DNA from: Candidatus Iainarchaeum sp.
GTDB taxonomy: Archaea > Iainarchaeota > Iainarchaeia > Iainarchaeales > JAXPJC01
Reading direction: 5' to 3'
DNA: 64,000 bases
Assembly: GCA_016187745.1 (NCBI GenBank)
Contig: JACPJC010000005.1
Location: forward strand, 192,308 to 256,307
This document shows positions 40,576-63,312 of this stretch, in pieces. The notes under the pieces are model-generated. The model had not been told where the DNA came from, searched no databases, and was given only the letters and a program-made list of their open reading frames with translations. Each line of letters starts with the position of its first letter. The first letter of the stretch is position 1. A program made the translations under genes and the position numbers.

Positions 40576-40894
40576 CCTCAGAGCAGGGATTCTGAAAGAT
40601 GAGTGCAATGTATGAAATGACAAGAGTTCTTTCAGCAAAAACTGCAAAGCGCAGGACCCTTGCAGACCTTGCAGTTGCCATCCTGGGAAAGGAATGGCCT
40701 CTTTCCTTAAATGCCATACATCAAAGAATAACCAAAGGGCATGGAAAAGCCGCATCAATCCAGGCAACCCATAAGAGCCTTGCAAGGCTTGTAAAGCAGA
40801 ACATTCTTCTGAAGCAGAAAAAACGCTACAGATTGAGCCCGAAATGGCTTGAGCAAGTCAATAATTTCAGCATGCAGACAAAAGAGGCATATGC
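40533..40894 (+). repeat. ~360-bp direct repeat, copy 1 (operator, promoter and short wHTH gene)
   Basis: Matches 57263-57624; the offset is 16,730 bp at both ends. Confidence 0.95.
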
Positions 40895-49678: not shown

Positions 49679-49831
49679 CCTTAGGCTTTTCGTTATGCAT
49701 ATTGCTAAGTTTTTTGCCTGACATATTTATCCTCTAATTTTATGAGCATACTCATATGCAACATTCTCTTTCCCTGTCATCCCCCCAGCTAATTTCTATC
49801 TGAATTTATCCCTTCTTGGTAAATCTTTTAC

Positions 49832-49932
49832 TAAAGAACCTTGGCGCTGAACGCTCCGCTTTTCAAAGCGGAGATGAAAGCTATTGTACTTATCATAATT
49901 AAACGCCTTGGCATTTATGCCAAGGTTCTTTA
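49832..49932 (-). repeat. ~100-nt structured element with 14-bp terminal inverted repeats, copy 1
   Basis: TAAAGAACCTTGGC...GCCAAGGTTCTTTA with two internal hairpins; homologous to 62625-62728. Confidence 0.85.
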
Positions 49933-50000
49933 CATTCCTGCAATTCATCGCAGAACTTGCAGTTGAACTGGTAGCTTGCATACTGCCCAAAACAGGCCAT
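49899..50000 (-). CDS. Cys-rich mini-protein, copy 1 (33 aa; C-terminus supplied by the structured element)
   Basis: MACFGQYASYQFNCKFCDELQEC..., paralogous to 63163-63312. Confidence 0.5.
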   Translation of the reverse strand: MACFGQYASYQFNCKFCDELQECKEPWHKCQGV

Positions 50001-50261
50001 TCCCTGCTTTTCCTTATGCGTGCCATGCCAAATTCATATTTGTGCCTCCTGCAGGCAAGGCGGTTAAGGCACATAATCTATCAGAACTTGCAAAATTTTT
50101 TGTAAATAAATTCGGGAAATCCTGACTTAGGCAATAAATGGCATCAGCCAGAGCCATGTTATGTATAATCATTTGCTTCCCGCCCCATCAAAAGGTTTTT
50201 ATATAATGGAATTATTATTAATTAAGCGGAATCTGGAATGATTTTCGGAAAGTGAAAAGCA

Positions 50262-51044
50262 ATGCCAAAGGACGGGATTGAAAGGGTTGAGACGGGGATA
50301 AAGGGCTTGGACAAGGCGCTTAATGGCGGCGTTCCCCGCGGCAATTTAGTTCTTATTTCAGGCGGAGCAGGCACTGGAAAGAGCACGCTCTCCCTGCAAT
50401 TCGTTTACAACGGCGCAAAGCTCTATGGCGAAAAAGGCGTTTATTTTACCACAGAGCAGAGGGAAGATGAGCTTAGAAAACAAGCCACAAGATTCGGCTG
50501 GGATCTGGCAGCATTGGAAAAGAAAGGGCTGCTAAAGCTGATTTTCCTTGATATTGTGCACAAGGTGAATTTCTATGAAACAATTGAAACAACCATCAGA
50601 ACCTTCAAGCCTGAGAGAGTAGTAGTGGATTCAATGGTAACGCTTGCAGACAGCATGAGCATAACAGACTTCAAGGACCTTACTGCAATCTCATTTGCAC
50701 AGCTCTTGGAAAACGTGGGACCGCAGGCGCAGGTGCAGCAAGCGGAGAAGCTCATAACGCGCAATATTCTTTACAATCTCTACAGCGCGCTGAAGCAGGC
50801 GAATGTAACAGCGCTTCTGGTTTCAGAGCTGCCTGAAAAGAGCGATTTCCTGAGCGCTGATGAGATAAGTGAATTTATAAGTGATGGAGTTATTTTGTTG
50901 CATTATTTAGGCATTGGCAGCGCAGAGTTCAGATCATTACAAATTAGGAAAATGCGCTACACAACACATGAGAAAGATTACATTTTGTATGACATCGCTA
51001 ATACAGGAATTGAAATTAAAAAAGAAGCAGAAATAAAAGTTTGA
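50262..51044 (+). CDS. KaiC/RAD55-like RecA-superfamily ATPase
   Basis: TGIKGLD, GGAGTGKS, RVVVDS, SDGVILL, RSLQIRKMR. Confidence 0.93.
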   Translation: MPKDGIERVETGIKGLDKALNGGVPRGNLVLISGGAGTGKSTLSLQFVYNGAKLYGEKGVYFTTEQREDELRKQATRFGWDLAALEKKGLLKLIFLDIVHKVNFYETIETTIRTFKPERVVVDSMVTLADSMSITDFKDLTAISFAQLLENVGPQAQVQQAEKLITRNILYNLYSALKQANVTALLVSELPEKSDFLSADEISEFISDGVILLHYLGIGSAEFRSLQIRKMRYTTHEKDYILYDIANTGIEIKKEAEIKV

Positions 51045-51088
51045 ATGAACGAATTAAAATTTCTCTCAATAAAAGATGGAGAAGAACA

Positions 51089-51703
51089 ATGGGTGTTTTT
51101 GGAATAGAATATGGGGAGATAGCAAAACTTTTAATTGGTGGGCAACTTACGTTTAAAGAAGGAAAAATAGAGCTACTTGGAGAAGGCGTTACTTTTGTTC
51201 CACTTACAGACCACATCGCAGAAATAAAATATTATGAAAATATGAATGCGGAGAATGGAATATATATTGGAGCCAAATATACTGGTCTTACTTGGAATGA
51301 AAAAATGTTAACTAAATATAAAACAAAAACACCTAGGGAGATTTTTGAGTGGGGAAATAAAGTTATGAATCTTGCAGGCTACGGTGAATTCAAAGTTTAT
51401 AAAGAAAATAAAGATAGGACTGAATGGATCTGGAGAATTTATAATAGCCAAATAGCTGAAGCATACCTCAAGAAGTATGGAAAAGCAAAATGGCCAGTTT
51501 GCCACAGGGTTAGGGGCTACTTCGCCGGAGCAGCAAGCTTTGTAGCTAGAGTTGACTTGGATGCTGTGGAAGTAAAATGCAAAGCAAAAGGGGACTCATA
51601 TTGTGAATTTGTCATTAAAAAAAATAAAAAATTTAATATAGCAACTACATTAGTAAAAAAACAACTTAAAGATATAGGTCAGGAGTCATATGCAAGAGAA
51701 TAA
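51089..51703 (+). CDS. V4R (4-vinyl reductase-like) ligand-binding domain protein
   Basis: AGYGEF, PVCH..RGYFAG, EVKCKAKGDSYCEF; start moved to ATG 51089. Confidence 0.9.
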   Translation: MGVFGIEYGEIAKLLIGGQLTFKEGKIELLGEGVTFVPLTDHIAEIKYYENMNAENGIYIGAKYTGLTWNEKMLTKYKTKTPREIFEWGNKVMNLAGYGEFKVYKENKDRTEWIWRIYNSQIAEAYLKKYGKAKWPVCHRVRGYFAGAASFVARVDLDAVEVKCKAKGDSYCEFVIKKNKKFNIATTLVKKQLKDIGQESYARE

Positions 51704-52682
51704 ACCAATTAAGCTAAATGCATTAAAAAATCATGAGTCAAACTGGAAAACATTAGAACATACTGTTAAACTCTATAAAGAAGTTGGAAAACGCAACATA
51801 TATCTCTTTGATTGGCTTCTTTATATGTGGGAAAATTTATATCTTTCTTGTGTTGATTTAAAATGCATTGACTCATTAAGCACCACTAAAACAAAGGTTG
51901 CTATTCTTGATACTCTTATTGATGATGTTGCAGATAGTACTAAAATAGAAGATGATTTTTTTTTAAATGAACTTTCTAAGTTTGCTTTTGAAAGAAAGTA
52001 TATTGAATGGAATAAACTAAATCAATACCAAATAAAGTATATTAAAAATACCTTGGCTGTATGGGATGACATTATTGAAACTATCAAGAAATACCCCCGA
52101 TTTGAAGAATTTAAGAGAATTCTCGAATGGGATGTTAATCAAGTAATTAATTCAATGAAGTTTGCTCATTTAGTGAATACTGTCCCTAATCTCAATAACT
52201 TGGTTGAAAATAGAGCTTATGGACACCATAGTATGACAGTAATCATGTGTGGTACAATAGATTTAATGTGTTCTCCCTCATTCGATATGCGAGATTTTTC
52301 TAAAATTAGAAAAGTTCTATATTATGCCCAACAGTTAGCTAGAATTGGAAATATGATTAATACTTATCCAAGAGAAATAAATGAGGAGGATATCTCAAGT
52401 GAGATTCTCACAATGGCCATTGAAGATAAGATTATTGACTCAGAAAAATTAAAAAATAGTCTAAGGGATAAAAATAATGTTGTCTTAATTACTCAGTTAG
52501 TGAAAAAGTTTGATGAGTATTGGGATGATCTCTATTTTAAGATAAAAGAGGTAGGTAGAGATATAAAGTCTATTGATATTAATGAGTTTTTGAGAGAAAG
52601 AAAATTCATTCAACAGAAATATGAGGAACGAGTAAAATATTGGTTGAAAGATTATGCCGATAAACGATTCGTTGAATTTTAA
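51690..52682 (+). CDS. Class I terpene synthase/isoprenoid-fold protein
   Basis: DDxxD motif IDDVAD and NSE/DTE-like motif RIGNMINTYPRE at the expected spacing. Confidence 0.7.
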   Translation: MQENKPIKLNALKNHESNWKTLEHTVKLYKEVGKRNIYLFDWLLYMWENLYLSCVDLKCIDSLSTTKTKVAILDTLIDDVADSTKIEDDFFLNELSKFAFERKYIEWNKLNQYQIKYIKNTLAVWDDIIETIKKYPRFEEFKRILEWDVNQVINSMKFAHLVNTVPNLNNLVENRAYGHHSMTVIMCGTIDLMCSPSFDMRDFSKIRKVLYYAQQLARIGNMINTYPREINEEDISSEILTMAIEDKIIDSEKLKNSLRDKNNVVLITQLVKKFDEYWDDLYFKIKEVGRDIKSIDINEFLRERKFIQQKYEERVKYWLKDYADKRFVEF

Positions 52683-52707
52683 TGTTTTTTTAAGGTGCTG
52701 AAGACTA

Positions 52708-52920
52708 ATGGAAGACTCACATAAACGTTCTTTGGTTAAATCAATTACATATAGAGCAAGTGCAACATTAGCTTTAGCGATAATTTCTTGGTTTTATACA
52801 GGAAATCTTCTTGAGACATCGTTCATTACAATAATTTTTACTATAGTAGCGACTATAATTTACTACTTCCATGAGAGGGTTTGGGATAGAATTAAGTGGG
52901 AAAGACACATAAGAAAATAG
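52708..52920 (+). CDS. DUF2061-domain membrane protein
   Basis: RSLVKSITYR..YYFHERVWDRIKW. Confidence 0.9.
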   Translation: MEDSHKRSLVKSITYRASATLALAIISWFYTGNLLETSFITIIFTIVATIIYYFHERVWDRIKWERHIRK

Positions 52921-52959
52921 TTATTGGACAATCTCTTTGTAATTTAATTGTCATACCAT

Positions 52960-53823
52960 TTACCTGAAATATTTCATCAACTGTTTCTTCAAAAACTTTG
53001 CCATATCAGGATTTCTTGTTATTGTGAGGTCAAAATGCATCGGAGTTTTTAGTGTATTTCTGAAATATACCTCCCTGAAAAGGTCTGTAAGATTTTTGTT
53101 TCTGTTATACACTTCATCCAATATTTGTTTAGTTTCTGCAGAAGATACAACTTCAATTATACAATCTCCTTGAACATACAGCGAGTCATCGAATAGTTGT
53201 TCCTTTGTGCCTATTTTTACATTGCTTACACCTGCTCTTAGAAATTGTTTTTGAAGCCATTTATCAAATGGGCTGGCCAATGAAACAATAGCGTAAGTCT
53301 TCTTACAGTTTCTGGCAACGCCTTGCAAAATCGCAAAATCTTTGAAATTGAATCTTAATGGCCAATACATGTGCCTGAACCAAGCAATTGCTGTTGGGTC
53401 ACTATCTCCTGCTAAGATTCTATTTGCAAGCAACTCTGCTATAAAAACGGATAAAACGCTAAAGTCATTAAACTCCAATTTAATAGTCCCCTTGAAATTC
53501 GGATCAATGTCATAAATCATCCCTTCTTTGTTGTATAGTTTTTCCAAATTTGTAGAGAATTTCTTTATATTTGAAATCCAATCCTTGTTCAACTCATATT
53601 TTGCTCCCGCCCTGTAAATAATTCTGTTTTCTTCAAGCTGTTTTAAACTTTTATGGATAGCCTGGTAAGAAACATTTAACGAGAGCTGCCTCTTGGTTCT
53701 GCCATAAATTTCCTTAGCGCTCAATGGCCACTCCTGGCTTAGTATGGAGATGATGGCGTCTTTGGTGGTATTTTGTTTGGTGTTCAATTGCGGAATTATG
53801 GGATTAACCGGCATCTTATTCAC
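52960..53823 (-). CDS. 'EWPLS' winged-helix regulator, paralog 5
   Basis: IPQL..TKDAIISILSQEWPLSAKEIY..VSYQAIHK plus ~190-aa C-terminal domain. Confidence 0.85.
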   Translation of the reverse strand: MNKMPVNPIIPQLNTKQNTTKDAIISILSQEWPLSAKEIYGRTKRQLSLNVSYQAIHKSLKQLEENRIIYRAGAKYELNKDWISNIKKFSTNLEKLYNKEGMIYDIDPNFKGTIKLEFNDFSVLSVFIAELLANRILAGDSDPTAIAWFRHMYWPLRFNFKDFAILQGVARNCKKTYAIVSLASPFDKWLQKQFLRAGVSNVKIGTKEQLFDDSLYVQGDCIIEVVSSAETKQILDEVYNRNKNLTDLFREVYFRNTLKTPMHFDLTITRNPDMAKFLKKQLMKYFR

Positions 53824-54676
53824 TCCTGAAATATTTCATCAATTGCCTTTTCAAAAATTTTGCCATTGAAGGGTCCCGTGTTATTGTAACCTCAAAATGC
53901 ATTGGAGCCTTTAACGCGTCCCTGAAATACACTTCCCTGAAAAGATCTGTAATATTCTTGTTTCTGTTGTATATCTCATCCAATATCTGTTTAGTTCTTT
54001 GGGAGGCATTGAATTTTATCACGCTATCCCCGTGAACTATTAAATCATAATCAAATAGCTCTTCCCCAATCCCTATTTTTACACCTTTGAAACCGGCTTT
54101 CAAATACTGCTTCTGGACCCATTTATCAAACAAGCTGGCTGAAGAGGCAATAACATAGGCATTTTTGCAGTTTTTGCCTATGCGTTGAAGAAGCTCGAAA
54201 TCCTTAAAGTTAAATCTTAGCGGCCAATAGAGGTGCCTAAGCCAGCCAATTGCCATGGGGGCGCTATCTCCCACCAACGTATTGCTTGAGAGTATTTCCG
54301 CAAAAGTAACAATCATAACTGCATAATCATTAAACTGCCACTTAATTGTCCCCCTAAAGTTCCGGTCAATTTCATAAACCATCTCGTCTTTATTGTATAA
54401 TTTCTCCAGGTTTGTAAAAGATTTCTTTGTGTTTGAGATCCAGCTTCTGTTCAGCTCATATTCCCGCCCGACCTTGGAAATAATTCCCTCTTTTTCAAAT
54501 TGCTTTATTGTTTTGTGGACGGCCTGATAGGAAACATTCAAGGAAAGCTGCCTTCGGGCCCTGTTGTGGATTTCTTTTGCGGATAGGGGCCATTCTTGGC
54601 TAAGAATTGAGACAATTGCATCTTTGGCAGTTTTTTGCTTGGGATTTAATTGCGGAATTACAATATTGGTTGTCAT
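53816..54676 (-). CDS. 'EWPLS' winged-helix regulator, paralog 4
   Basis: Same architecture; closest to paralog 5 (RHLYWPLRFNFKDF). Confidence 0.85.
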   Translation of the reverse strand: MTTNIVIPQLNPKQKTAKDAIVSILSQEWPLSAKEIHNRARRQLSLNVSYQAVHKTIKQFEKEGIISKVGREYELNRSWISNTKKSFTNLEKLYNKDEMVYEIDRNFRGTIKWQFNDYAVMIVTFAEILSSNTLVGDSAPMAIGWLRHLYWPLRFNFKDFELLQRIGKNCKNAYVIASSASLFDKWVQKQYLKAGFKGVKIGIGEELFDYDLIVHGDSVIKFNASQRTKQILDEIYNRNKNITDLFREVYFRDALKAPMHFEVTITRDPSMAKFLKRQLMKYFRSE

Positions 54677-55533
54677 TTTTTATCGCCTTCAAAATACTTC
54701 AAATATTCCTCTCTTATCTGGTCAGCAAGAACCTGGTTCCTTGTTATGACCATGTTGATTATCGGCTTTGCATCCCTCATTCTGTCCAGATGGGATGCCA
54801 GATTGAATTCAGTAATGGTTTTCGGCGATTTGTTCTGCAAATACCATGCGTGCCTGAAATCAGGCGAATACCATATCTGCCCTACATAATCCCCTATAAC
54901 TATCGTATCGCACAAGGGAGTAGCGCACTCAACCCCAAACATGATGTGCTTTGCCCCGAAACCTTTCAAGCCATCTGCAAACATCCTGTCCAATAAATTA
55001 TCTTCCTGCGAGAAGATATAGTATGGAGTTTTTGCAAAAACCTCTTTTAATTCCGCATAATCCTCGTCTTTCAGGCCGACTATTGAGTAAATATTCCTCC
55101 ATAAGCAGATATTCGGCTTGTTTTTTGGGTTTGGATACTGCATATATATTCCAATCAGGAATCTTGCAAGCTCCAGAATTCCGATGAATGTGAGATTGGC
55201 AACATCCTTTTTGTGCAGGTCTTTAAGCTCATTAATCCCGATCTTGCCGGAATAATGCAGGTCCAGCGTGGCTGCGGAATGTTTGACTCTTTTGATCCAG
55301 TCCTTGTTCAGGGAATATTCATTCTCTTGCTTTTCCAATACTTTGTCATCCAGCAGCTGCAGAAGCAATTTGTGCACCGCCTGATAGCTGACATTCAGGC
55401 CATGCTCCCTAATAACTTTATTGTAAATCTTCTTTGCACTAAGCGGCCATTCCTGGCTTAAAATTGAGATAATTACGTCCTTGGTAGATTTATTCTTAGA
55501 AGCCAGCTGCGGAATTTGAATATCATCAATCAT
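54673..55533 (-). CDS. 'EWPLS' winged-helix regulator, paralog 3
   Basis: TKDVIISILSQEWPLSAKKIY..VSYQAVHK. Confidence 0.85.
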   Translation of the reverse strand: MIDDIQIPQLASKNKSTKDVIISILSQEWPLSAKKIYNKVIREHGLNVSYQAVHKLLLQLLDDKVLEKQENEYSLNKDWIKRVKHSAATLDLHYSGKIGINELKDLHKKDVANLTFIGILELARFLIGIYMQYPNPKNKPNICLWRNIYSIVGLKDEDYAELKEVFAKTPYYIFSQEDNLLDRMFADGLKGFGAKHIMFGVECATPLCDTIVIGDYVGQIWYSPDFRHAWYLQNKSPKTITEFNLASHLDRMRDAKPIINMVITRNQVLADQIREEYLKYFEGDKK

Positions 55534-56381
55534 TTTCTCTCTCCCTTGAAATATTCCATTGTCTGTTCCCTGATTCTGTCTGCAACTTCCCGATTCTTTG
55601 AAACTATAACATTGAACTTATCACTATGCTCATATATGAGCATCAGCAGTTTGCTAAGTCTCAGTTTGTCTAAAATTCTAGCAATTTTGCAGTATCTAAG
55701 CCAGTCCTTTCTGAATTTTGGTGAGAAATAAATTAGCCCAACGTAATCTCCCTGGACCATCGTGTCAGGATTAAAGGGAATATCAGCCCCCAATAGAACT
55801 TTTGCCCCAAGACCTGTGAAGTTTTCAGCAAATATCTTGTCCATTGTTGTCTGGTTGTGCCCCAACATATAGTATTGTGTTTGTGAAAGCCTTTGCCTTA
55901 ATCTCCGGTATTCCGAATCGGAAAGGCTGATTGGGGGGTAGATGCTCCACCAATGACAAATTCCTGGCTTCTTGTCAGGATTTGGATATGCAAAAAATAC
56001 ATCCAAGATGAATCTCGCCAGATCCATAGGGTCATTAAATGTGAAATTGAATACTTCCTGATTTTCAGAATGTTTCATTGATGCAGGAATTTTAGTTATG
56101 TATGCCCTTTCTATGAATTCCCCGAAATTCTTAATGCTTCTAATCCAATCCAGGTTTAACATAAATCCTTTTTCAATCTTCTTTATTTGCCCTGCACTTT
56201 CCATCTCATTCAAAGTTTTATGAACTGCCTGATATGAAATCGCAATCGTACGCTTTCTAAGCAAGCGATTGCAAATCTCTTTGGCACTCAAAGGCCACTC
56301 TTCAGCCAAGATTGCAATAATTTGGTCTTTCGTTGATTTTGATTTAGAATTCAGCTGTGGGATTGAAATGTCCATAGCCAT
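55530..56381 (-). CDS. 'EWPLS' winged-helix regulator, paralog 2
   Basis: TKDQIIAILAEEWPLSAKEI..ISYQAVHK. Confidence 0.85.
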   Translation of the reverse strand: MAMDISIPQLNSKSKSTKDQIIAILAEEWPLSAKEICNRLLRKRTIAISYQAVHKTLNEMESAGQIKKIEKGFMLNLDWIRSIKNFGEFIERAYITKIPASMKHSENQEVFNFTFNDPMDLARFILDVFFAYPNPDKKPGICHWWSIYPPISLSDSEYRRLRQRLSQTQYYMLGHNQTTMDKIFAENFTGLGAKVLLGADIPFNPDTMVQGDYVGLIYFSPKFRKDWLRYCKIARILDKLRLSKLLMLIYEHSDKFNVIVSKNREVADRIREQTMEYFKGERK

Positions 56382-56382
56382 T

Positions 56383-57225
56383 TTACTCCCCCTTCCTGAA
56401 ATATGACAAGGTCTGCTTTTTCAGGAATTGCGCAAGCCCTTTGTTGCGGTTGATTACCACAGGGATCCTGACCTTTTTCTCAAACACGTTCCTGAAAAAC
56501 CCGTCAGCATCAATGTCATTTGCGCCTGATGCGCGCTCATAAACCTTGTCAATTTCGTATTTTATTGCCTGGGGGTAAAAGACCTCTGCTACAATGTCCT
56601 TGTATATTACCATGTCAATAGTGGATGCTGAGTCAACACCGCACTTTGCATGAATTCCTTTCTTACGCCAAAAATTGCAGAACTGCCTGTCAATTGCGGT
56701 ATTGCCCCTTGTTATGGAATATGTATTGCATGCAGCCAGGATTTCATTCATCTGCCTGTATTCCTCCATAAACATAAAAAGCGGTATCCAGAAATGGGTC
56801 CAGTGCAGGCAAAGAACCTCTTTTTTGCCTGAGATTTCCTTCTTCCCAAATCCTATAAGGAATTTGTCCACATCATAAACCGAATTAAACATGAGATTCA
56901 ATGGATTGGCGTTTGGATTCTGCGGCTCATTTAACGCATATGCTGTTTCCAGATGCTCGCTGAATTCCTTAATATTCTTTATCCATTCGTTGTCCAGCAG
57001 ATATGCCATGCCCTGGCTTGCTATTATCCTGTGCGATTGAAGCGTATTGAGCGTCTTATGAACCGCCTGATAGGAAATGCCGATTGCCTGCTGCCTGCGG
57101 AGCTTGTTGTAAATCTGCTTGGCTGTAAGGGGCCACTCTTCGCTGAGTATTGAAATAATCGCGTCCTTCGTGGAGCCTGCTTTTGAACCGAATTGCGGCA
57201 GGATTGGGCTTGAGCCTGTAGGCAT
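56383..57225 (-). CDS. 'EWPLS/T' winged-helix regulator, paralog 1 (first gene of the array)
   Basis: TKDAIISILSEEWPLTAKQIY..ISYQAVHK; start moved to ATG 57225. Confidence 0.85.
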   Translation of the reverse strand: MPTGSSPILPQFGSKAGSTKDAIISILSEEWPLTAKQIYNKLRRQQAIGISYQAVHKTLNTLQSHRIIASQGMAYLLDNEWIKNIKEFSEHLETAYALNEPQNPNANPLNLMFNSVYDVDKFLIGFGKKEISGKKEVLCLHWTHFWIPLFMFMEEYRQMNEILAACNTYSITRGNTAIDRQFCNFWRKKGIHAKCGVDSASTIDMVIYKDIVAEVFYPQAIKYEIDKVYERASGANDIDADGFFRNVFEKKVRIPVVINRNKGLAQFLKKQTLSYFRKGE

Positions 57226-57262
57226 AATAAGTAAATATAGTGGAGGGGAAGCTTTTTTAAAT

Positions 57263-57305
57263 TCAACCATTTAGTTGATTTCTGTTCAACCGCAGGTATA
57301 TTAAT
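57263..57305 (+). promoter_or_regulatory. Palindromic operator-like site plus TATA-like box, copy B (divergent promoter region)
   Basis: TCAACC-ATTT-AGTTGA-N7-TCAACC-GCAGG-TATATTAAT, 23 bp before ATG 57329. Confidence 0.8.
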
Positions 57306-57624
57306 CCTCAGAGCGGGAATTCTGAAAGATGAGTGCAATGTACGAAATGACAAGGCTTCTTTCAGCAAAAACTGCAAAGCGCAAAACTCTTGCAGACCTT
57401 GCAGTTGCTATCCTGGGCAGGGAATGGCCCCTTTCCTTAAATGCCATACACCAGAAAATAACCAAAGGACATGGAAAAGCCGCATCAATCCAGGCAACCC
57501 ATAAAAGCCTTGCAAGGCTTGTAAGGCAAAATGTTCTTCTGAAAAGTAAAAAACGCTACAGACTGAGCCCGAAATGGCTTGAGCAGGTAAATAATTTCAG
57601 CATGCAGACGAAAGAGGCTTATGC
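57263..57624 (+). repeat. ~360-bp direct repeat, copy 2
   Basis: Matches 40533-40894. Confidence 0.95.
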
Positions 57625-57643
57625 GTTGTCATGTAACAGCTAA
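57329..57643 (+). CDS. Short 'EWPLS' winged-helix protein, copy 2
   Basis: 7 substitutions versus 40599-40916 over the first 99 aa, then a different tail. Confidence 0.85.
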   Translation: MSAMYEMTRLLSAKTAKRKTLADLAVAILGREWPLSLNAIHQKITKGHGKAASIQATHKSLARLVRQNVLLKSKKRYRLSPKWLEQVNNFSMQTKEAYALSCNS

Positions 57644-57658
57644 ACACACATTGAGACT

Positions 57659-60280
57659 GTGATGAAAATGAATGAATTTTACCATGCTAGAAGACTTAAG
57701 ATTCTTGAACTCATGAAACAAGAAAAGACACAACACCCCAACAAAAATTATCTTTCTATTCACAAACAGGTATGTAGTTATCCTGTTTTGTCAATCGTTG
57801 CTCCAGTCGTAGACAGCTATCAGGATAAAATAGAGTTTCCTGGCGACCCAATGTGCTTGTACACTGCCCTCGCTTACCCAATCAAGCAAGTAGTGGACCA
57901 CGTTGATAAAGTTTCAAAAGAGTTTGATCAATTTCCAGAGAGAAAAATTGGCTTCTACAACGACCTTTTCCCACAATGGTTTCAACTTCCATCTAACGGC
58001 TACAGAAACTTTGCTTCCGAAGAACAAATATCAAAGTATGACTACAAAGACGGTGACTTTTTTAACACAGACCAACTAGTTTTTGATCCGCGAGCATGGA
58101 CACCTGATACCAAAGATTGTCTAAATAGGCTGTTGAACTTTATAGATCCAAAAGTCGTATTGATTAGTGGGGTTTCTTCGGCGCAAAAATTTGTAGTTGA
58201 AATTGCAAAGATCGTGAAAGACTATAATGATAAAATAATAATCATAGTGGGGGGACGGCACGCAGATGAAACAATAAAAGAAAAAAATGGTGAAATTGTT
58301 TTTGAACAGGCTAGCATAGTAAGTGCTATTGCAGAAAAAAGAATACTGCCCGTAATTGACATTGTGTTATCTGGCGAGGGCTATTATGCGTTAGATTTTC
58401 TCATGAAAACAATATCCCAAAGTATGGATATTGAAAAAAAGATTGTTTTGGATTCAAAGATTTTGCTTGAATCGCTTACAAAAAAAGAGCATTTGTTAGC
58501 AAAGGTTCTAGGAAAGGCAATCATCACCTGTCTTATCGGAGGAAAAATACGATTTTTTGTGACAAGTGGGAAAAAAACAAGATTGGAATACCCCTTTGTA
58601 ATTAGAGCACGTTTTTCTGTATTCTCTGAAAAAGAGAATAAACCGCCAATAACCGCCCACATAAATACTTCACACACTTGCCTTTACAGTTGCTTATATT
58701 GTTCAGAAGGCAAAAATGTCGTCAATCGAAATGTGTATGCTAGCGAAAAAAGATACTTTAAAAAAACAATCAAAGACTATTTGGATTATGGGGCATTGGC
58801 ATTCTTTTTTGATGATTCAGTCCTTTGCGGTGGGAACATTGCAAGAATTGGAATTTTGCTAGAAGCGCTTTCAGAATTAAGGGAAGAAGCGAAAAAGAAA
58901 ATGAAAACATTCTCCTATTTGGATCCCTGTCTTGAGAAAGTGTACAGGACAGCAAATTTTGAATGGGGGGCTCAGCTAACATTTGATTCAATTACAACAG
59001 TCTTGCCAAAGGAAGAAGCGAGAAACATTCTGAAAAAAATGAATGAAACTGGTTGCAGATACTTGTATTTTGGCATTGAGAGCCTTGCTGAAAAAGTAAT
59101 AAGAAATGTCCACAAGAACTTGCCCAACAAGGATGCTGATTGGCTGGAAAAAACAATAAAAGCGCTGGAACTAGTTAAAGAGGCAAATATCCGTGCAGGT
59201 GCTTCCGTTTTATTTGGGTTGCCTGGAGAAACAATGCAAACAATAGACTTCACCATCAATGAGGTCGCAAAACTGGTGCGAAAAAACCTTCTTTTAATAG
59301 TCAGCCCAAACATCCTTTCATATCATCCAGGAACACTAATAACTGAAATGGATTCTGCGAAGGAGAAAATAGATTATTTTAACCAAATAGAGGATATCAG
59401 TCCACCCTATTCTTATTTTGAAGAAGCATTCAGATGCCTTGTTTCAATAAGGCTAACCGAGGAAATGATTTGGCACATTCATAATCAAACAAAATTAAAA
59501 TGGAAAAAACACCGCAACATGAATTTAATGAAGATCCCCAGACTTCCGATGGATATCACAAAAGAAAGACTGGTGAGTTTTTATTCCACTATTGGAAATA
59601 GGCTTGTAGAACAAAAAAATTATCCCCCCGAAATCAATGAATTTCTTGAACTAGAAAAAAAGTTGTTTAAAGACTTGGTTAAAAAAGAAAACTGCAAAAT
59701 TATTGTTGAAGTTGGTTGCATGGATACTGGGTTCATTCTTCAAGAAACCATAGAAGCTGGACTTTCCTATATTGGAATAGATGTGGTTAAGGAATTGGTT
59801 GAAAAACTAAATACAACAATATCCAATTCTGCTTTTGATAAAGGCATAAACACAGCAATAGCCTATAATCAGGGGGTGGAAGAACTGTCGAAAATTATCA
59901 AAAAAAGTAAATTGACTGCTGGAGAAACATTAGCTGTCTTTCCATTCAACAGTTTTGGCAATATCACAGACCCAGAAAAAGCAGTTAATGAAATATGCAA
60001 ACTTGGAATGAACATGGCAGTATTTACCTACAAAACAGATCCTCAAACAACAAAAATCAGAAAAAAATATTATTTCAACTGCGACTACAAGAATACAAAA
60101 GAGTTAAAAGAAGATAAAGGGATATTATTTCAGTCGGAAGATGGTTTAATGTCTTACGCCTATAAGGAGTCATACATAAAAAAATTGTTGTCCAAAAGAG
60201 ACTATGAATACAAATTAATCAAGTTTGGTGCAATTGGAGCCTTATATTTTTGCAAAAAAAGGAGGATGCCAAATGGATAA
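57659..60280 (+). CDS. B12-binding-type radical SAM protein fused to a C-terminal methyltransferase-like domain
   Basis: IIVGGRHA, GEG, CLYSCLYC, FFDD, GIESL, LFGLPGET; C-terminal IVEVGC..YIGIDV..FNSFGN. Confidence 0.85.
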   Translation: MMKMNEFYHARRLKILELMKQEKTQHPNKNYLSIHKQVCSYPVLSIVAPVVDSYQDKIEFPGDPMCLYTALAYPIKQVVDHVDKVSKEFDQFPERKIGFYNDLFPQWFQLPSNGYRNFASEEQISKYDYKDGDFFNTDQLVFDPRAWTPDTKDCLNRLLNFIDPKVVLISGVSSAQKFVVEIAKIVKDYNDKIIIIVGGRHADETIKEKNGEIVFEQASIVSAIAEKRILPVIDIVLSGEGYYALDFLMKTISQSMDIEKKIVLDSKILLESLTKKEHLLAKVLGKAIITCLIGGKIRFFVTSGKKTRLEYPFVIRARFSVFSEKENKPPITAHINTSHTCLYSCLYCSEGKNVVNRNVYASEKRYFKKTIKDYLDYGALAFFFDDSVLCGGNIARIGILLEALSELREEAKKKMKTFSYLDPCLEKVYRTANFEWGAQLTFDSITTVLPKEEARNILKKMNETGCRYLYFGIESLAEKVIRNVHKNLPNKDADWLEKTIKALELVKEANIRAGASVLFGLPGETMQTIDFTINEVAKLVRKNLLLIVSPNILSYHPGTLITEMDSAKEKIDYFNQIEDISPPYSYFEEAFRCLVSIRLTEEMIWHIHNQTKLKWKKHRNMNLMKIPRLPMDITKERLVSFYSTIGNRLVEQKNYPPEINEFLELEKKLFKDLVKKENCKIIVEVGCMDTGFILQETIEAGLSYIGIDVVKELVEKLNTTISNSAFDKGINTAIAYNQGVEELSKIIKKSKLTAGETLAVFPFNSFGNITDPEKAVNEICKLGMNMAVFTYKTDPQTTKIRKKYYFNCDYKNTKELKEDKGILFQSEDGLMSYAYKESYIKKLLSKRDYEYKLIKFGAIGALYFCKKRRMPNG

Positions 60281-61079
60281 CAGAATAAAAATAAATGTAA
60301 AAGAGAATTTTGAAGAAAGACTCTCCGGGCTGGAAATAGGTTACATATACTTCTATGGAGTGAATAATACTGCCAACAATCCAATCGTTGACGATGCAAT
60401 AAGGACTGCTTGCAAAGAAGTAATCGAAAGATACAAAGACACAAACACTATTGCAGAAAACCCCGCAATAAAAGGAATACGCTCACTGTTCTCAAAAATA
60501 GGGATTGACCCAACGAAAGAAAGACCGTCCGGAGAAGCACTCATCAGAAGAGTCACAAGTGGCAAAGGAATATACCGAATAAACCCGGTCGTAGACATAA
60601 ACAATGTTGTATCTATTCTATCAGGCTATCCCTGCGGGGTCTATGATGCTGAAAAAATTGCCGGAAATGAGATTAAAGTTTCTATTGGCGGAAAAGGTTT
60701 AATCTTTGAGGGCATCGGAGGAAGACCGATAAATGGCGAAGGCAGAATTCTCACAGAGGACAGCCATTCTGTTTTCGGTGGGCCAGTAGCAGACTCAAAA
60801 AGAACCTCCATCACACCACGAACAACAAAAGTACTAATGCTAATATACCACCCAAGCAACGCACCAAAAGAACTACTCAAAAAAGCAATTGAACTAGCAC
60901 AAACTAAAATGGCTTCCGCCGTTAAGGCCAATATAGCTTATGCAGATGTCTGCCGCATAGGCCAAAACCCCCATTCCCAAACACCACTACCTAACATAAA
61001 GCGGTTTATGGAGAAAGAAAGAACCCTTAAAAAAAATTATTTCAACATAAGCAGAAAAAGACCAAAACCACTTATTTAG
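60273..61079 (+). CDS. B3/B4 (PheRS editing-like) domain protein
   Basis: R.LF.KIGIDPTKERPSGEAL.RR, INPVVD.NN, G.YD, GGP..DS.RT; start moved to ATG 60273. Confidence 0.9.
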   Translation: MDNRIKINVKENFEERLSGLEIGYIYFYGVNNTANNPIVDDAIRTACKEVIERYKDTNTIAENPAIKGIRSLFSKIGIDPTKERPSGEALIRRVTSGKGIYRINPVVDINNVVSILSGYPCGVYDAEKIAGNEIKVSIGGKGLIFEGIGGRPINGEGRILTEDSHSVFGGPVADSKRTSITPRTTKVLMLIYHPSNAPKELLKKAIELAQTKMASAVKANIAYADVCRIGQNPHSQTPLPNIKRFMEKERTLKKNYFNISRKRPKPLI

Positions 61080-61088
61080 AGGGATTAA

Positions 61089-61385
61089 ATGAAACTAGTA
61101 AGGGATAAAATTCCAGAAATAATGGACGCAAAAGGAAAGAAGCCAATAATTCATACCGCCAGTGCTGATGAGTTTAAGAGGAATCTGATTGAAAAGCTTA
61201 ATGAAGAAGTATTAGAAATAAAAAAAGAGTTAAATGCTGAGGAATTGGCAGATCTGCTTGAAGTTATATATTCTTTGGGCAAATTAATTTGGCTGACACC
61301 GCAAGACCTTGAAAAGATAAGAATAAAAAAAGCTGAAGAGAACGGCGACTTTTCAAAAAAGATAATATTGGAAAACCCGAAATAA
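61089..61385 (+). CDS. MazG-like/PRA-PH-like nucleoside triphosphate pyrophosphohydrolase
   Basis: KLVRDKIPEI..KL.EE..E..EELADLLEV..R..K..G.F. Confidence 0.9.
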   Translation: MKLVRDKIPEIMDAKGKKPIIHTASADEFKRNLIEKLNEEVLEIKKELNAEELADLLEVIYSLGKLIWLTPQDLEKIRIKKAEENGDFSKKIILENPK

Positions 61386-61420
61386 GCTAAAAACAATTCC
61401 AAAATAATGCTTCTTAGCAT

Positions 61421-61463
61421 TAAACCATTTAGTTGATTTCTGTTCAACCGCAGGTATATTAAT
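61421..61463 (+). promoter_or_regulatory. Palindromic operator-like site plus TATA-like box, copy C
   Basis: TAAACC-ATTT-AGTTGA-N7-TCAACC-GCAGG-TATATTAAT, 32 bp before ATG 61496. Confidence 0.8.
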
Positions 61464-61495
61464 GCCAAAATTCTATGTATAAAAAGTGAGGTAGA

Positions 61496-62236
61496 ATGAT
61501 GCTGAAGAGAAATGTTTTGTTGTGCCTTTCAATGCTGCTGTTAAGCCCATTTGTTTCTGCAATAGGCTCTGAATTGAATGGCAGTGAAAACTACAATTAT
61601 AATCTTGCAGAGTTGAACAAACTACTGCCGTATATGGCTCTGAATAAGGATTATTCTGTAAAATTTGATTCTGTCGTGGCAAAAGCAGAGCTGCCGGAGA
61701 AGTATGTAAAATTGGGAAAGCTTTATGAAGAATATCATAACAACTTTATTCAGGCTGCAAAGGCCAATGGAGTTTACTCGAACAAAATAAAAGAATTGCC
61801 GGACAATCAATTCTTCAGCAATTTCTTCGAGTCTAAAAGCACAATGACAGCTCAAGCCACAATCTCTGCAAGCAGCCTGGTTTGCGGGGGAAGCCAGCAG
61901 CAGCCGCATCAATGCCCTGCAAGGGTAAATTCAGGGATATCCAAGAAAAGCCAGACAGAAATATCAAATTATTTAAAGGGCATGGGATTCCACAATACTT
62001 ATTGGCCAGGCTGCGGGCCGCAGGGATATACCTGCTCAACAGACTTTACAAAGTGGATAAGTGCATATAATTGCACTTGGGGCTCTTTCAGAACCCAGGC
62101 AAATATCTTTCAAAGCGGAACAAAATGGACTTACAGAACACAATCCCCTGAGCCGAATCCGGAGATTTTCAGCTATTCATGGCCAGTATACTGGTGGGGA
62201 ACTTATGTTTCATGGTGGCACTTATCTTGCAACTGA
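61496..62236 (+). CDS. Secreted Cys/Trp-rich hypothetical protein
   Basis: Signal peptide ending VSA; C-terminal PEPNPE..Y.WP.YWW..YV.WWH. Confidence 0.8.
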   Translation: MMLKRNVLLCLSMLLLSPFVSAIGSELNGSENYNYNLAELNKLLPYMALNKDYSVKFDSVVAKAELPEKYVKLGKLYEEYHNNFIQAAKANGVYSNKIKELPDNQFFSNFFESKSTMTAQATISASSLVCGGSQQQPHQCPARVNSGISKKSQTEISNYLKGMGFHNTYWPGCGPQGYTCSTDFTKWISAYNCTWGSFRTQANIFQSGTKWTYRTQSPEPNPEIFSYSWPVYWWGTYVSWWHLSCN

Positions 62237-62262
62237 ATTATTGTAAATCAGGAGAACTAAAT

Positions 62263-62592
62263 ATGAAAGAAAAATTACAGAAATTCCTCTTTCCAACCAA
62301 GATAAAGATTGCAGTCTTTTTAATTTTTATGCTTTTGGTTGCACTTGCAACAATACAAGCATGGGGATTTGCAGATCAGCAGGGTCCAAAGCCATTTTTA
62401 TATGATGCAATCAGACAGATTCCTTTCTGGGCGGCGTTGGCATATCTCCTCGCCCCGATAATGATAATAACCGTTCCACTATCGCAAGTGGGTTTGGGGC
62501 TGCTGATTTTTCCTATTGCAATAGTCTATCTATATTTGTTCTCCTGCTTAATTGGCCTAATTCTCGAAAGATATCTTCTACAGAAACGCTAG
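62263..62592 (+). CDS. Small membrane protein
   Basis: GGAG RBS, ATG 62263, about 3 TM helices. Confidence 0.7.
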   Translation: MKEKLQKFLFPTKIKIAVFLIFMLLVALATIQAWGFADQQGPKPFLYDAIRQIPFWAALAYLLAPIMIITVPLSQVGLGLLIFPIAIVYLYLFSCLIGLILERYLLQKR

Positions 62593-62624
62593 TATCGATA
62601 AGGATAACTATCTTCTGTATTTAC

Positions 62625-62728
62625 TAAAGAACCCTGGCGCTGAACGCTTCGTTCTTCAGAACTGAGATGAAAACTATTCTGATTGTTGTCATTCCTAAAC
62701 GCCCTGGCATTTATGCCAAGGTTCTTTA
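62625..62728 (-). repeat. ~100-nt structured element with terminal inverted repeats, copy 2
   Basis: Homologous to 49832-49932, with G-U and compensatory changes. Confidence 0.85.
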
Positions 62729-62741
62729 CGAATCAGGGGAC

Positions 62742-62784
62742 TAAACTATTTGGTTGATTTCTGTTCAACCTCACATATATTAAT
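62742..62784 (+). promoter_or_regulatory. Palindromic operator-like site plus TATA-like box, copy D
   Basis: TAAACT-ATTT-GGTTGA-N7-TCAACC-TCACA-TATATTAAT, 32 bp before ATG 62817. Confidence 0.75.
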
Positions 62785-62816
62785 CCTCAGGGCGCGGGTT
62801 ATAATGGGGGTGTGCT

Positions 62817-63170: not shown

Positions 63171-63312
63171 TGAAAAATCAAAAGTGCCGGAAATGGTCTG
63201 CTTCGGGCAGTACGCGAGCTATTACTTCAACTGCAAGTTCTGCGATTCCCTGCAGGAATGCAGGGAATTTACAACCGCAAGGCGCGGGCGGGCAAAAACA
63301 AAACATTTATAG
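63163..63312 (+). CDS. Cys-rich mini-protein, copy 2 (49 aa)
   Basis: Hand translation MPDEKSKVPEMVCFGQYASYYFNCKFCDSLQECREF...; overlaps the upstream stop. Confidence 0.65.
   Translation: MPDEKSKVPEMVCFGQYASYYFNCKFCDSLQECREFTTARRGRAKTKHL

What the first reader, a model, noticed from the sequence alone, without database searches (positions are those of the whole stretch)
49832..62728. Two copies of an unknown ~100-nt structured element with covariation and strand-specific G-U pairs
Seen: 49832-49932 and 62625-62728 share 14-bp terminal inverted repeats (TAAAGAACCTTGGC). They also share a CCTTGGCAT-AA-ATGCCA(A/G)GG palindrome and a TGAA-loop hairpin that changes from CTCCGCTT/AAGCGGAG to CTCAGTTC/GAACGAAG, with two compensatory pairs and two new mismatches. 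Two A-to-G changes in copy 2 give G-U pairs only on the minus strand. Similarity ends sharply, and in copy 1 the element replaces the end of a mini-gene. Inference: a minus-strand folded ncRNA or ssDNA element such as a MITE, a PATE/REP-like element or a non-canonical attC-like site.
Basis: partly seen in the sequence, partly recalled or inferred. Interest (0 to 1): 0.68.

Follow-up and report, generated by a model that had tools for sequence, protein, structure and literature searches.

The report
Gene-less IS200/IS605-type mini-transposon family
The two ~100-base look-alikes are copies of a small, protein-less jumping DNA element that has spread through a few tiny groundwater DPANN archaea; its ends are built like those of the well-known IS200/IS605 single-strand transposons, so it is a new family of a known kind, not a new RNA gene.

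Summary
The genome holds 9 copies: 4 long (101-104 nt) and 5 internally deleted (55-70 nt). Sister-population contigs hold 5 more. Three other genomes of the same order hold diverged subfamilies of 6, about 20 and 1 copies.

Two filled-versus-empty comparisons show precise insertion right after a TTTAC-like site with no classical target duplication. Across 37 copies only the left flank (TTTAC) and the base after the right end (C) are conserved.

The long form has the IS608-type plan: TTTAC | 18 nt - AACG - hairpin ... AACG - hairpin - TTCT - TTAC |. The 4-nt "guides" obey the IS608 guide/cleavage pairing rule. They co-vary with the cleavage sites: GACG goes with TCAC, once at the right end and once at a target. 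Three TnpB insertion sequences in the same genome have the same right-end plan.

Most likely this is a non-autonomous IS200/IS605-type element moved in trans by a Y1 transposase. It is unusual in having a 14-nt terminal inverted repeat and mobile one-hairpin mini-forms. No matching transposase gene was found. The minus-strand RNA reading, a small ORF and an attC site are not supported.

The parts
49827..49831 (+). TTTAC target motif (TAM-like) flanking copy 1 on the left; host DNA, not part of the element
   Evidence: In 37 copies, positions -5..-1 are T32 T35 T31 A34 C36. A TTTAC-like sequence is already present in the two empty sites.
49832..49933 (+). Copy 1, long form (102 nt), top (presumed active) strand = window + strand
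   Evidence: 95 bits with model R1.
49832..49845 (+). Left terminal arm TAAAGAACCTTGGC. It is complementary to the last 14 nt before the final C, and its CCTTGGC is a direct repeat of the 5' arm of the right hairpin.
   Evidence: 90.9% of cells paired over 27 copies, and 3 pairs with changes on both sides.
49850..49853 (+). AACG, presumed left guide (G_L), immediately 5' of the foot of hairpin 1
   Evidence: AACG in 23 of 27 long copies. It fits the IS608 rule with TTAC.
49854..49873 (+). Hairpin 1 (presumed IP_L): CTCCGCTT-TTCA-AAGCGGAG. Its foot lies 22 nt from the left end.
   Evidence: Five of 8 pairs show compensatory changes over 27 copies.
49874..49901 (+). Variable interior (ATGAAAGCT...). 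It forms a second hairpin in only some family members. The apparent mini-ORF start lies here.
   Evidence: mean z -0.86, inconsistent. The reading frame is not kept.
49902..49905 (+). AACG, presumed right guide (G_R), immediately 5' of the foot of hairpin 2
   Evidence: AACG in 21 of 27 copies. It is GACG where the terminal motif is TCAC.
49906..49925 (+). Hairpin 2 (presumed IP_R): CCTTGGCAT-TT-ATGCCAAGG
   Evidence: 91.6% of cells paired, and 3 pairs with changes on both sides.
49930..49933 (+). Terminal TTAC (TEM-like cleavage motif). The cleavage point lies 8 nt from the hairpin foot.
   Evidence: TTAC in 21 of 27 copies, and TCAC in the G174 subfamily.
49899..50000 (-). 33-aa Cys-rich mini-ORF, MACFGQYASYQFNCKFCDELQEC|KEPWHKCQGV*. 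The element supplies the third base of its last Cys codon, its last 10 codons and its stop codon.
   Evidence: Paralogues lie at 63193-63312 and at G000 C2:~67912.
62620..62624 (+). TTTAC target motif flanking copy 2 on the left
62625..62729 (+). Copy 2, long form (105 nt), same orientation as copy 1. It lies 32 nt after the stop of ORF 62179-62592.
   Evidence: 86 bits.
62643..62646 (+). AACG, presumed left guide of copy 2
62647..62666 (+). Hairpin 1 of copy 2: CTTCGTTC-TTCA-GAACTGAG (one C/T mismatch and one T-G pair on this strand)
62698..62701 (+). AACG, presumed right guide of copy 2
62702..62721 (+). Hairpin 2 of copy 2: CCCTGGCAT-TT-ATGCCAAGG
62726..62729 (+). Terminal TTAC of copy 2

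Best explanation
The two sequences are members of a family of gene-less mobile elements of the IS200/IS605 type (PATE-like). They are found in a few groundwater DPANN archaea.

Shown:
- The element is dispersed.
- It is precisely present or absent at orthologous sites.
- It always sits directly 3' of a TTTAC-like pentanucleotide.
- It ends in T(T/C)AC.
- It makes no classical target duplication.
- It carries two hairpins kept by compensatory changes, each preceded by the tetranucleotide AACG.

Inferred:
- The window's + strand is the active 'top' strand.
- A Y1 (HUH) TnpA transposase supplied in trans binds the two hairpins in single-stranded DNA.
- The AACG guides pair with the TTAC cleavage motifs by the IS608 rule (C1:G2, C2:G1, C4:G4).
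- The element is cut out as a single-stranded circle and pasted 3' of another TTTAC ('peel and paste').

The 14-nt terminal complementarity is atypical for this family. So are the 55-70-nt derivatives that have lost hairpin 1 yet occur at several loci. The role of these features is not explained.

In this compact genome copies survive mainly at gene 3' ends, where the terminal TAA often serves as the neighbour's stop codon.
For: 1. Copy number and spread.
- Nine copies in the genome.
- Five more distinct copies in contigs 85-92% identical to this genome.
- A covariance model finds subfamilies in G174 (5 matches plus one cut off at a contig end), G087 (17 matches; 21 copies aligned) and G025 (1 copy). 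That is 5 of 196 genomes of the order.

2. Insertion.
- L070 is filled where G000 C5:~103376 is empty. L066 is filled where G000 C1:~213606 is empty.
- The insert is TAAAG...CTTTAC, placed after TTCTAC or TTTTGC, with nothing duplicated beyond at most one base.

3. Asymmetric flanks. Over 37 copies the left flank is TTTAC and the right flank is only +1 C. In G174 the flank is TTTAC but the element end is TTCAC, so the right motif belongs to the element.

4. Tandem dimer. In G087:C65 the second copy starts directly after the first copy's terminal TTTAC.

5. IS608-like geometry.
- Hairpin 1 starts 22 nt from the left cleavage site; IS608 has 19 nt.
- The right cleavage site lies 8 nt after hairpin 2; IS608 has 10 nt.
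- A 4-nt guide sits 5' of each hairpin foot. The rule comes from PMC3201880.
- The rule is met in 23 of 27 left ends and 21 of 27 right ends.

6. Guide/cleavage covariation. In G174 the right guide is GACG and the terminal motif is TCAC. In copy C3:10743 the left guide is GACG and the target is TCAC. All 3 G-first guides face a C, against 4 of 51 A-first guides (my arithmetic).

7. The three TnpB insertion sequences of the same genome end in the same way: AAAG-hairpin-TAGT-TTAC, and GAAG-hairpin-TAAT-TCAC twice.

8. Hairpin covariation. 89.7% of cells are paired, and 8 of 16 pairs change on both sides. No shuffle of 500 reaches the score. Slid controls give 31-48% paired.

9. Y1 TnpA genes occur in the other four genomes with model matches (G087, G174, G025 and the weak G121), against 54 of 196 genomes of the order.
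Against: - No transposase gene with matching ends was found.
- G000 has no Y1 TnpA at all.
- The TnpA and TnpB loci examined share no sequence with the element ends.
- The element has a 14-nt terminal inverted repeat that itself co-varies. IS200/IS605 elements and PATEs are defined as lacking one (PMC3119063).
- The two hairpins do not resemble each other. IS608's two hairpins, as I recall, are near-identical.
- Short forms lack hairpin 1 and the left guide. Yet three of them share one deletion junction at three different loci, so they seem to have moved.
- Four copies have TCAC opposite an AACG guide, a C/A clash.
- The two guide covariation events are few. The G174 copies are related by descent.
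- A one-base duplication (C...C, and T...T in copy C1:108187) cannot be excluded.
Confidence: 0.7

Rival explanations
1. It is a classical MITE: a cut-and-paste element whose 14-nt terminal inverted repeats are bound by a DDE transposase encoded elsewhere. The internal hairpins would be incidental.
For: The termini form a perfect 14-nt inverted repeat, kept by paired changes between subfamilies: TAAAG/CTTTA, TGAAG/CTTCA, TAAAA/TTTTA and CCTTGG/CCATGG. Short forms keep little more than the termini and one palindrome and still occur at several loci.
Against: Two filled/empty pairs show no target duplication. The flanks are strongly asymmetric: a 5-nt motif on one side only. No longer element with these termini exists in G000, G087, G174 or G025. 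The model explains neither the AACG motifs nor their covariation with the cleavage motifs.
Confidence: 0.1
2. It is an 'orphan' small mobile repeat like the SMR elements of Haloquadratum. It would be moved by an unknown enzyme, for example a recombinase acting on the palindromic right-end/left-end junction GCCAAGGTTCTTTA-C-TAAAGAACCTTGGC and a TTTAC-containing target.
For: It shares the SMR description: about 110 bp, prominent inverted termini, no target duplication, strong target preference, no related transposon (PMC3119063). The joined ends would form a near-perfect 29-nt palindrome (read from the sequence).
Against: SMR-A elements target IS605/PATE palindromes, not TTTAC. No mechanism is known for them, so this reading predicts nothing specific. 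The IS608 guide rule and geometry would be coincidence.
Confidence: 0.12
3. It is a functional gene: a structured small RNA or riboregulator, or a short hydrophobic peptide (MKAIVLIIIKRLGIYAKVLY...) whose GGAG ribosome-binding site is held in hairpin 1, as in type I toxin mRNAs.
For: Compensatory changes occur in both hairpins. GGAG-(A/T/G)TGAA is conserved across subfamilies. Three of the four long copies in G000, plus L062, keep one reading frame with conservative hydrophobic substitutions and a 3-nt indel.
Against: The frame is broken in C2:4481, L114 and L117. The start codon is CTG, ACG or ATA in L070, L139, L110, L120 and L124. Many G087 copies carry an in-frame TAG or end after 13 codons. 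The peptide's conserved part is encoded by the hairpin and terminus, which are conserved anyway. Copies lie in both orientations relative to neighbouring genes. Short forms lack the region entirely. No Rfam family matches. No RNA data exist.
Confidence: 0.05
4. It is an integron attC-like recombination site.
For: The size (55-105 nt) and the imperfect inverted repeats that fold as a single strand.
Against: The termini are AAAGAAC/GTTCTTT, which do not fit RYYYAAC/GTTRRRY (attC consensus from my own knowledge). Copies are single and scattered over 8 contigs at unrelated gene ends, not in same-orientation cassette arrays. Insertion is next to TTTAC.
Confidence: 0.01

Closest known systems
IS608 / IS200-IS605 family single-strand transposons and their gene-less derivatives (PATEs; Dyall-Smith 2011 PMC3119063; Meers 2023 PMC10055086; He 2011 PMC3201880)
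   Same: Insertion 3' of a fixed TTAC/TTTAC motif with no classical target duplication. A similar motif, T(T/C)AC, forms the right terminus. Subterminal hairpins lie 22 nt from the left cleavage site and 8 nt from the right one. A 4-nt guide sits 5' of each hairpin foot and obeys the IS608 pairing rule and co-varies with the cleavage motif. The element is too short to encode protein. Bona fide TnpB insertion sequences in the same genome share its right-end plan.
   Different: It has a 14-nt terminal inverted repeat. Its two hairpins are unlike each other. At 102 nt it is very small, and it has 55-70-nt one-hairpin derivatives that seem to be mobile. No autonomous relative or matching TnpA has been identified.
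SMR-A small mobile repeats of Haloquadratum walsbyi (HqIRS42/43/55; PMC3119063)
   Same: About 110 bp, prominent inverted termini, no target duplication, strong target-site preference, no transposon with related termini, archaeal host.
   Different: SMR-A elements insert into the near-terminal palindromes of PATEs and IS605 elements, not after TTTAC. No guide/hairpin layout is described for them. There is no sequence similarity that I could test.
Classical bacterial and archaeal MITEs (e.g. Correia elements, IS630-derived MITEs; census in PMC11602168)
   Same: Short, non-coding, with inverted termini, dispersed near genes, sometimes supplying stop codons or C-terminal tails. MITE-rich DPANN genomes have been reported.
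   Different: MITEs make 2-10-bp target duplications and derive their termini from a DDE transposon. Neither holds here.
REP/BIME elements mobilised by RAYT (a Y1 HUH transposase)
   Same: Short extragenic palindromes thought to be handled as single-stranded hairpins by a Y1 enzyme.
   Different: REPs are about 35-nt units with a conserved 5' GTAG-type tetranucleotide, often in inverted pairs flanking a RAYT gene (from my own knowledge). No such unit, arrangement or gene is seen here.

Membership tests
IS200/IS605-type element (IS608 paradigm) | Inserts 3' of a specific 4-5-nt motif and creates no target duplication | tested here: met
   Two filled/empty pairs. The flank logo is TTTAC on the left only, over 37 copies. 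A tandem dimer shares one TTTAC. A single duplicated base cannot be excluded.
IS200/IS605-type element (IS608 paradigm) | Subterminal hairpins at both ends on one strand, with cleavage sites at some distance (IS608: 19 nt on the left, 10 nt on the right) | tested here: met
   Hairpin 1 lies 22 nt from the left end and hairpin 2 lies 8 nt from the right end. Both are supported by compensatory changes. Short forms lack hairpin 1.
IS200/IS605-type element (IS608 paradigm) | A 4-nt guide 5' of each hairpin foot pairs with the cleavage motif (C1:G2, C2:G1, C4:G4, C3 = A) | tested here: met
   AACG pairs with TTAC at 23 of 27 left ends and 21 of 27 right ends. GACG pairs with TCAC in two independent cases. 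There are four C/A exceptions.
IS200/IS605-type element (IS608 paradigm) | Mobilised by a Y1 HUH TnpA through a single-stranded circular intermediate | not testable with these tools
   No TnpA in G000. TnpA is present in G087, G174, G025 and G121 but with unrelated flanks. No biochemical or read-level test was possible.
IS200/IS605-type element (IS608 paradigm) | No terminal inverted repeats | tested here: not met
   A 14-nt terminal complementarity, 90.9% paired over 27 copies, with paired changes. For this reason I file the element as a variant, not as a plain member.
PATE (Dyall-Smith 2011) | Too short to encode a transposase; near-terminal palindromes related to those of IS605-type transposons of the host | tested here: inconclusive
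   It is too short to code. The right-end plan is the same as in the host's three TnpB insertion sequences, but there is no sequence similarity.
SMR-A (Haloquadratum) | About 110 bp, inverted termini unrelated to any transposon, no target duplication | tested here: met
SMR-A (Haloquadratum) | Preferential insertion into near-terminal palindromes of PATEs and IS605 elements | tested here: not met
   The targets are TTTAC sites at gene ends. A different nested hairpin element does behave this way towards this family.
MITE (DDE-dependent) | Target-site duplication of 2-10 bp and termini derived from a known transposon | tested here: not met
Integron attC | R''/R' core sites RYYYAAC...GTTRRRY, arranged in cassette arrays next to intI | tested here: not met
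   The termini are AAAGAAC...GTTCTTT, and the copies are scattered.
Any Rfam RNA family | Match at or above the gathering score | tested here: not met
   No matches in the window. The best sub-threshold hit scores 19.7 bits against a cut-off of 45.

The most novel reading that the evidence does not exclude
The terminal complementarity may be functional rather than incidental. By pairing, the two ends would bring the TTTAC target motif and the terminal TTAC together. A single guide-plus-hairpin module would then suffice, and the 55-58-nt forms would be the smallest substrates of a Y1 transposase. This would give a mechanism for the 'enigmatic' inverted-repeat, duplication-free small mobile repeats (SMRs) of archaea. 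A further possibility is that RNA read out of the right end acts as a guide for the genome's orphan TnpB nucleases at TTTAC-flanked sites.
Probability: 0.2. Interest if true: 0.6.

Novelty: new variant of a known kind. Interest (0 to 1): 0.35.

Why it matters
It explains a conspicuous structured repeat in very small DPANN genomes as selfish DNA, not as a new regulatory RNA. That prevents mis-annotation of the repeat as an sRNA gene, a terminator or a mini-protein.

It shows that IS200/IS605-type single-strand transposition is active in these reduced symbiont genomes. It also shows the element reshaping gene ends: it donates stop codons to at least five genes and a 10-residue tail to a Cys-rich mini-protein.

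The covariation between a 4-nt internal guide and the flanking target (GACG with TCAC) is a natural example of the re-targeting shown experimentally for IS608.

The inverted termini and the mobile one-hairpin mini-forms do not fit the textbook element. If they are functional, they could link the unexplained archaeal SMR repeats to the same machinery. They would also define a minimal substrate useful for engineering ssDNA transposases.

Tried and rejected
- **Rfam.** The gathering-score search of the whole window and the permissive search of the element gave nothing meaningful.
- **Exact-pattern scans.** Scans of viral contigs and of 185,579 species genomes returned only chance matches. The metagenome scan gave 37 hits, of which 9 loci were real.
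- **Autonomous copy.**
  - The two lone near-perfect termini in G000 (C1:22856 and C5:142939) have no partner within 6 kb.
  - A pattern scan of G087, G174 and G025 found only MITE-sized pairs and contig-end fragments.
  - Flanks of five TnpA genes and three TnpB genes show no similarity to the element.
  - My strict search for left ends of the TnpB elements found nothing.
- **TA-duplication (IS630-type) model.** Rejected, because it would need an extra TAC in the empty sites.
- **5-bp TTTAC duplication.** Rejected, because the right motif stays constant while the left flank varies, and in G174 the two differ.
- **Small-ORF reading.** Rejected on frame shifts, lost start codons and stops.
- **Second interior hairpin.** Present in some copies only, with mean z -0.86.
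- **Population polymorphism of the two window copies.** Eight groundwater runs are kept only as contigs, which break inside the repeat. No empty-site form was seen.
- **Orthologous loci for copy 2.** Three more distant relatives lack the element, but gene order downstream differs, so there is no base-level empty site.
- **RNA evidence.** No RNA runs were found.
- **Literature.** No paper holds the element's sequence words. The supplements of the MITE census are not held.
- **Replication-strand bias.** Not testable on a 10-contig assembly.

Full report
**Observation**

They share three features:
- A 14-nt terminal complementarity, TAAAGAACC(T/C)TGGC ... GCCAAGGTTCTTTA.
- A 20-nt palindrome, CC(T/C)TGGCAT-TT-ATGCCAAGG. 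It gives 4 matches with up to 3 mismatches against 0.04 expected.
- An 8-bp hairpin with a TTCA loop whose arms differ between the copies but still pair.

Similarity stops abruptly. Outside the element only TTTAC on the left and C on the right are shared. Either strand folds much better than shuffled sequence, with z between -4.8 and -6.5. The window has no Rfam match at gathering score. A permissive scan of the element gives only sub-threshold noise.

**Not two copies but a family**

The window lies in a 964-kb, 10-contig assembly of a groundwater organism. Earlier notes of this scan call it a DPANN archaeon.

- The genome holds nine copies with both termini: four long (101-104 nt) and five shorter (55-70 nt). 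The shorter ones are internal-deletion derivatives of the long form.
- An exact-word scan of public metagenome contigs found nine more loci, which are five distinct copies. They lie on contigs 85-92% identical to and syntenic with this genome.
- I built a covariance model from 14 copies and searched 196 genomes of the same order. It found diverged subfamilies in genomes of other families: G174 (5 matches plus one cut off at a contig end; termini TGAAGAACCATGGC), G087 (17 matches, 21 copies aligned; termini TAAAAAACCTTGGC), G025 (one short copy) and a weak hit in G121.
- A phylum-wide search added nothing.
- Viral contigs and 185,579 species genomes gave only chance matches.

**It is mobile, and how it sits in its target**

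Two contigs of the sister population carry a copy where this genome has none. L070 is filled where G000 C5:~103376 is empty. L066 is filled where G000 C1:~213606 is empty. In both, the insert is TAAAG...CTTTAC, placed directly after a TTTAC-like sequence that is already present in the empty site (TTCTAC, TTTTGC). Nothing is duplicated beyond, at most, one base.

Over 37 copies, positions -5 to -1 read T32 T35 T31 A34 C36. On the right only +1 is conserved, as C in 32 of 37. Where the left flank deviates (TTCAC, AGCAC, TTAAC, CCTAC, TTTGC), the right end stays TTTAC. In G174 the flank is TTTAC while the element ends in TTCAC. The left motif is therefore the target, and the right motif belongs to the element.

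In G087:C65 two different copies lie head to tail. The second starts directly after the first one's terminal TTTAC. This is expected if that motif is the target.

These facts exclude a TA duplication (IS630-type) and a 5-bp duplication.

**Anatomy of the long form**

On the window's + strand the long form reads:

TTTAC | TAAAGAACCTTGGCGCTG - AACG - [CTCCGCTT TTCA AAGCGGAG] - ATGAAA...variable... - AACG - [CCTTGGCAT TT ATGCCAAGG] - TTCT - TTAC |

This is the layout of IS608, the reference IS200/IS605 element, as described by He et al. 2011 (PMC3201880):
- Cleavage occurs 3' of TTAC, 19 nt before the foot of the left hairpin.
- The right cleavage site lies 10 nt after the foot of the right hairpin.
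- The four bases 5' of each hairpin foot are guides that pair with the cleavage motif.
- The stated contacts T-4:A-34 and C-3:G-35 give the rule C1:G2 and C2:G1, with the third base (A) unpaired. I take C4:G4 from the AAAG/TTAC pair.

Here the distances are 22 and 8 nt. With TTAC the rule predicts a guide A-A-N-G, and AACG is found at both places. In 27 long copies the rule is met fully at 23 left ends and 21 right ends.

The guide's first base is G in only three cases: the right guide of two G174 copies and the left guide of copy C3:10743. In all three, the facing cleavage motif is TCAC instead of TTAC. Among the 51 guides that start with A, only four face TCAC (my arithmetic). The G174 copies share ancestry, so this amounts to two independent events. 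In the C3 case the changed motif is the flanking target, which is the re-targeting shown experimentally for IS608.

The three TnpB insertion sequences of this genome end in the same way:
- AAAG-CCAACGCC..GGTGTTGG-TAGT-TTAC
- GAAG-CCATAACC..GGTTATGG-TAAT-TCAC
- GAAG-CCAC..GGTGG-TAAT-TCAC

Similarity between the two most alike copies stops just after that motif, two bases further on. Meers et al. 2023 describe the same pair of a transposon-adjacent motif and a transposon-encoded motif that differ slightly. They report a TTCAC terminal motif and gene-less PATE-like relatives (PMC10055086).

**Structure support**

On the alignment of 27 long copies, RNAalifold predicts exactly the two hairpins. 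Counting pairs gives:
- 89.7% of cells paired.
- 8 of 16 pairs with changes on both sides (40 cells).
- No shuffle of 500 reaching the covariation score.
- 31-48% of cells paired when partners are slid by 1-3 columns.

The terminal stem is also kept, at 90.9% paired with three pairs changed on both sides. It competes with hairpin 2 for the same right arm.

G-T pairs do not single out the minus strand. Hairpin 1 has 11 on the plus-sense strand against 5 on the other. Hairpin 2 has 8 against 7. In the IS608 layout the active strand of both window copies is the + strand.

Compensatory change in a palindrome can also arise by template switching without selection, so I do not rest the case on it alone.

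**What does not fit**

- IS200/IS605 elements and PATEs are defined as lacking terminal inverted repeats (PMC3119063). This family has a co-varying one.
- The two hairpins are unlike each other.
- Short forms have lost hairpin 1 and the left guide. Yet three of them (C5:28485, C8:86552, C10:5247) share one deletion junction at three different loci, so they seem to have transposed.
- No transposase gene with matching ends was found. G000 has no Y1 TnpA.
- G087, G174, G025 and G121 do have TnpA, against 54 of 196 genomes in the order. That is a modest enrichment, about 0.02-0.07 by my binomial arithmetic.
- The flanks of those TnpA genes, and the 3' ends of the TnpB elements, share no sequence with the element.
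- These assemblies are fragmented and break at repeats. An autonomous copy could easily be missing.

**Other readings**

- **Classical DDE-dependent MITE.** Contradicted by the missing duplication and the one-sided flank motif.
- **Haloquadratum SMR-A class.** The description fits on the surface: about 110 bp, inverted termini, no duplication, strong target preference, mechanism 'enigmatic'. However, those elements target IS605/PATE palindromes, and that class explains nothing further.
- **Small ORF.** GGAG-ATG-AAA followed by hydrophobic codons looked tempting in G000. But the frame is broken in C2:4481, L114 and L117. The start is CTG, ACG or ATA in five copies. Many G087 copies carry in-frame stops. 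The A/T/G variation at the first 'start' base sits where, by analogy with IS608, the bases 3' of the left hairpin contact the guide. This last point is inference.
- **attC site.** Excluded by the core sequences and by the scattered, single-copy distribution.
- **RNA function.** Cannot be tested, because no RNA runs hold this DNA.

**Effects on genes**

In this compact genome the copies lie at gene ends.
- The terminal TAA (or its complement at the other end) is the stop codon of the adjacent gene at C1:108187, C2:4481, C5:28485, C8:86552 and C10:5247.
- At C6:7679 a 358-aa ORF reads through the whole element.
- Copy 1 sits inside a paralogue of a small Cys-rich protein. The intact paralogue at window 63193-63312 is MVCFGQYASYYFNCKFCDSLQECREFTTARRGRAKTKHL. 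Homology stops at the element boundary.
- The interrupted ORF (49899-50000, minus strand) keeps its fourth Cys through the element's first T. It then reads KEPWHKCQGV and an element-borne stop.
- Whether the old tail persists beyond the element is not demonstrable.
- Copy 2 lies 32 nt after ORF 62179-62592. Three more distant relatives lack an element after the orthologous gene, but their downstream genes differ.

**Verdict**

This is a real, dispersed, recently mobile, gene-less element family whose ends are built like those of IS200/IS605 transposons. I file it as a new variant of a known kind. By my reading it works like a PATE (about 0.7). However, it fails the 'no inverted termini' criterion, it has unexplained mobile one-hairpin forms, and its transposase is unidentified.

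I found no publication that holds its sequence. A 2024 census notes MITE-rich DPANN genomes without detail that I could check.

Interest is moderate to low for a specialist. The open points are the terminal pairing and the minimal forms.

Noticed in passing
window 62742-62794; also 40533-40584, 57265-57315, 61421-61463: A different ~50-nt repeat occurs four times in the window (84-88% identity). One copy lies 13 nt after the right end of copy 2. It appears to be the palindrome-plus-TATA motif of another first-stage finding, and it is unrelated in sequence to the element studied here.
   Followed up: partly
window 63193-63312 (+), 49899-50000 (-); G000 C2:~67912-68030: A family of small Cys-rich proteins (about 39 aa, C-x10-C-x2-C-x5-C, e.g. 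MVCFGQYASYYFNCKFCDSLQEC...). It has three paralogues in the genome and no Pfam match for the surrounding ORFs. The longer ORFs listed mechanically over them (92 aa and 128 aa) are in other frames.
   Followed up: partly
L120 (G174:C17:13938-14112) and L142 (G174:C61:1-50): A second, unrelated hairpin element of about 55 nt (CAACGCTTTAAGC...GCGCTTAAAGCGTTG) is inserted inside the right hairpin of two copies of the family in G174. This recalls how Haloquadratum SMR-A repeats insert into the near-terminal palindromes of PATEs.
   Followed up: no
G000 C1:262318-263544, C1:264891-266141 (6-10 kb beyond the window's end) and C8:69456-70601: Three TnpB (IS605 OrfB-type) genes have canonical right ends (guide, hairpin, 4-nt linker, TTAC or TCAC). 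The assembly has no Y1 TnpA gene, so these elements also depend on a transposase that is not in the assembly.
   Followed up: partly
L042 373-1189 (also L046, L060) versus G000 C3:88139-88147: Sister-population contigs carry an extra ~815-bp segment that encodes a 223-aa multi-pass membrane protein. A short copy of the element directly follows this segment, and the whole block is absent from this genome at that position.
   Followed up: no
window 49826-49934 and 62616-62731: In all eight groundwater runs, Logan contigs end or switch partners inside the element. Summed depth there rises 5- to 10-fold. The repeat is therefore a likely cause of contig breaks in assemblies of these organisms.
   Followed up: no
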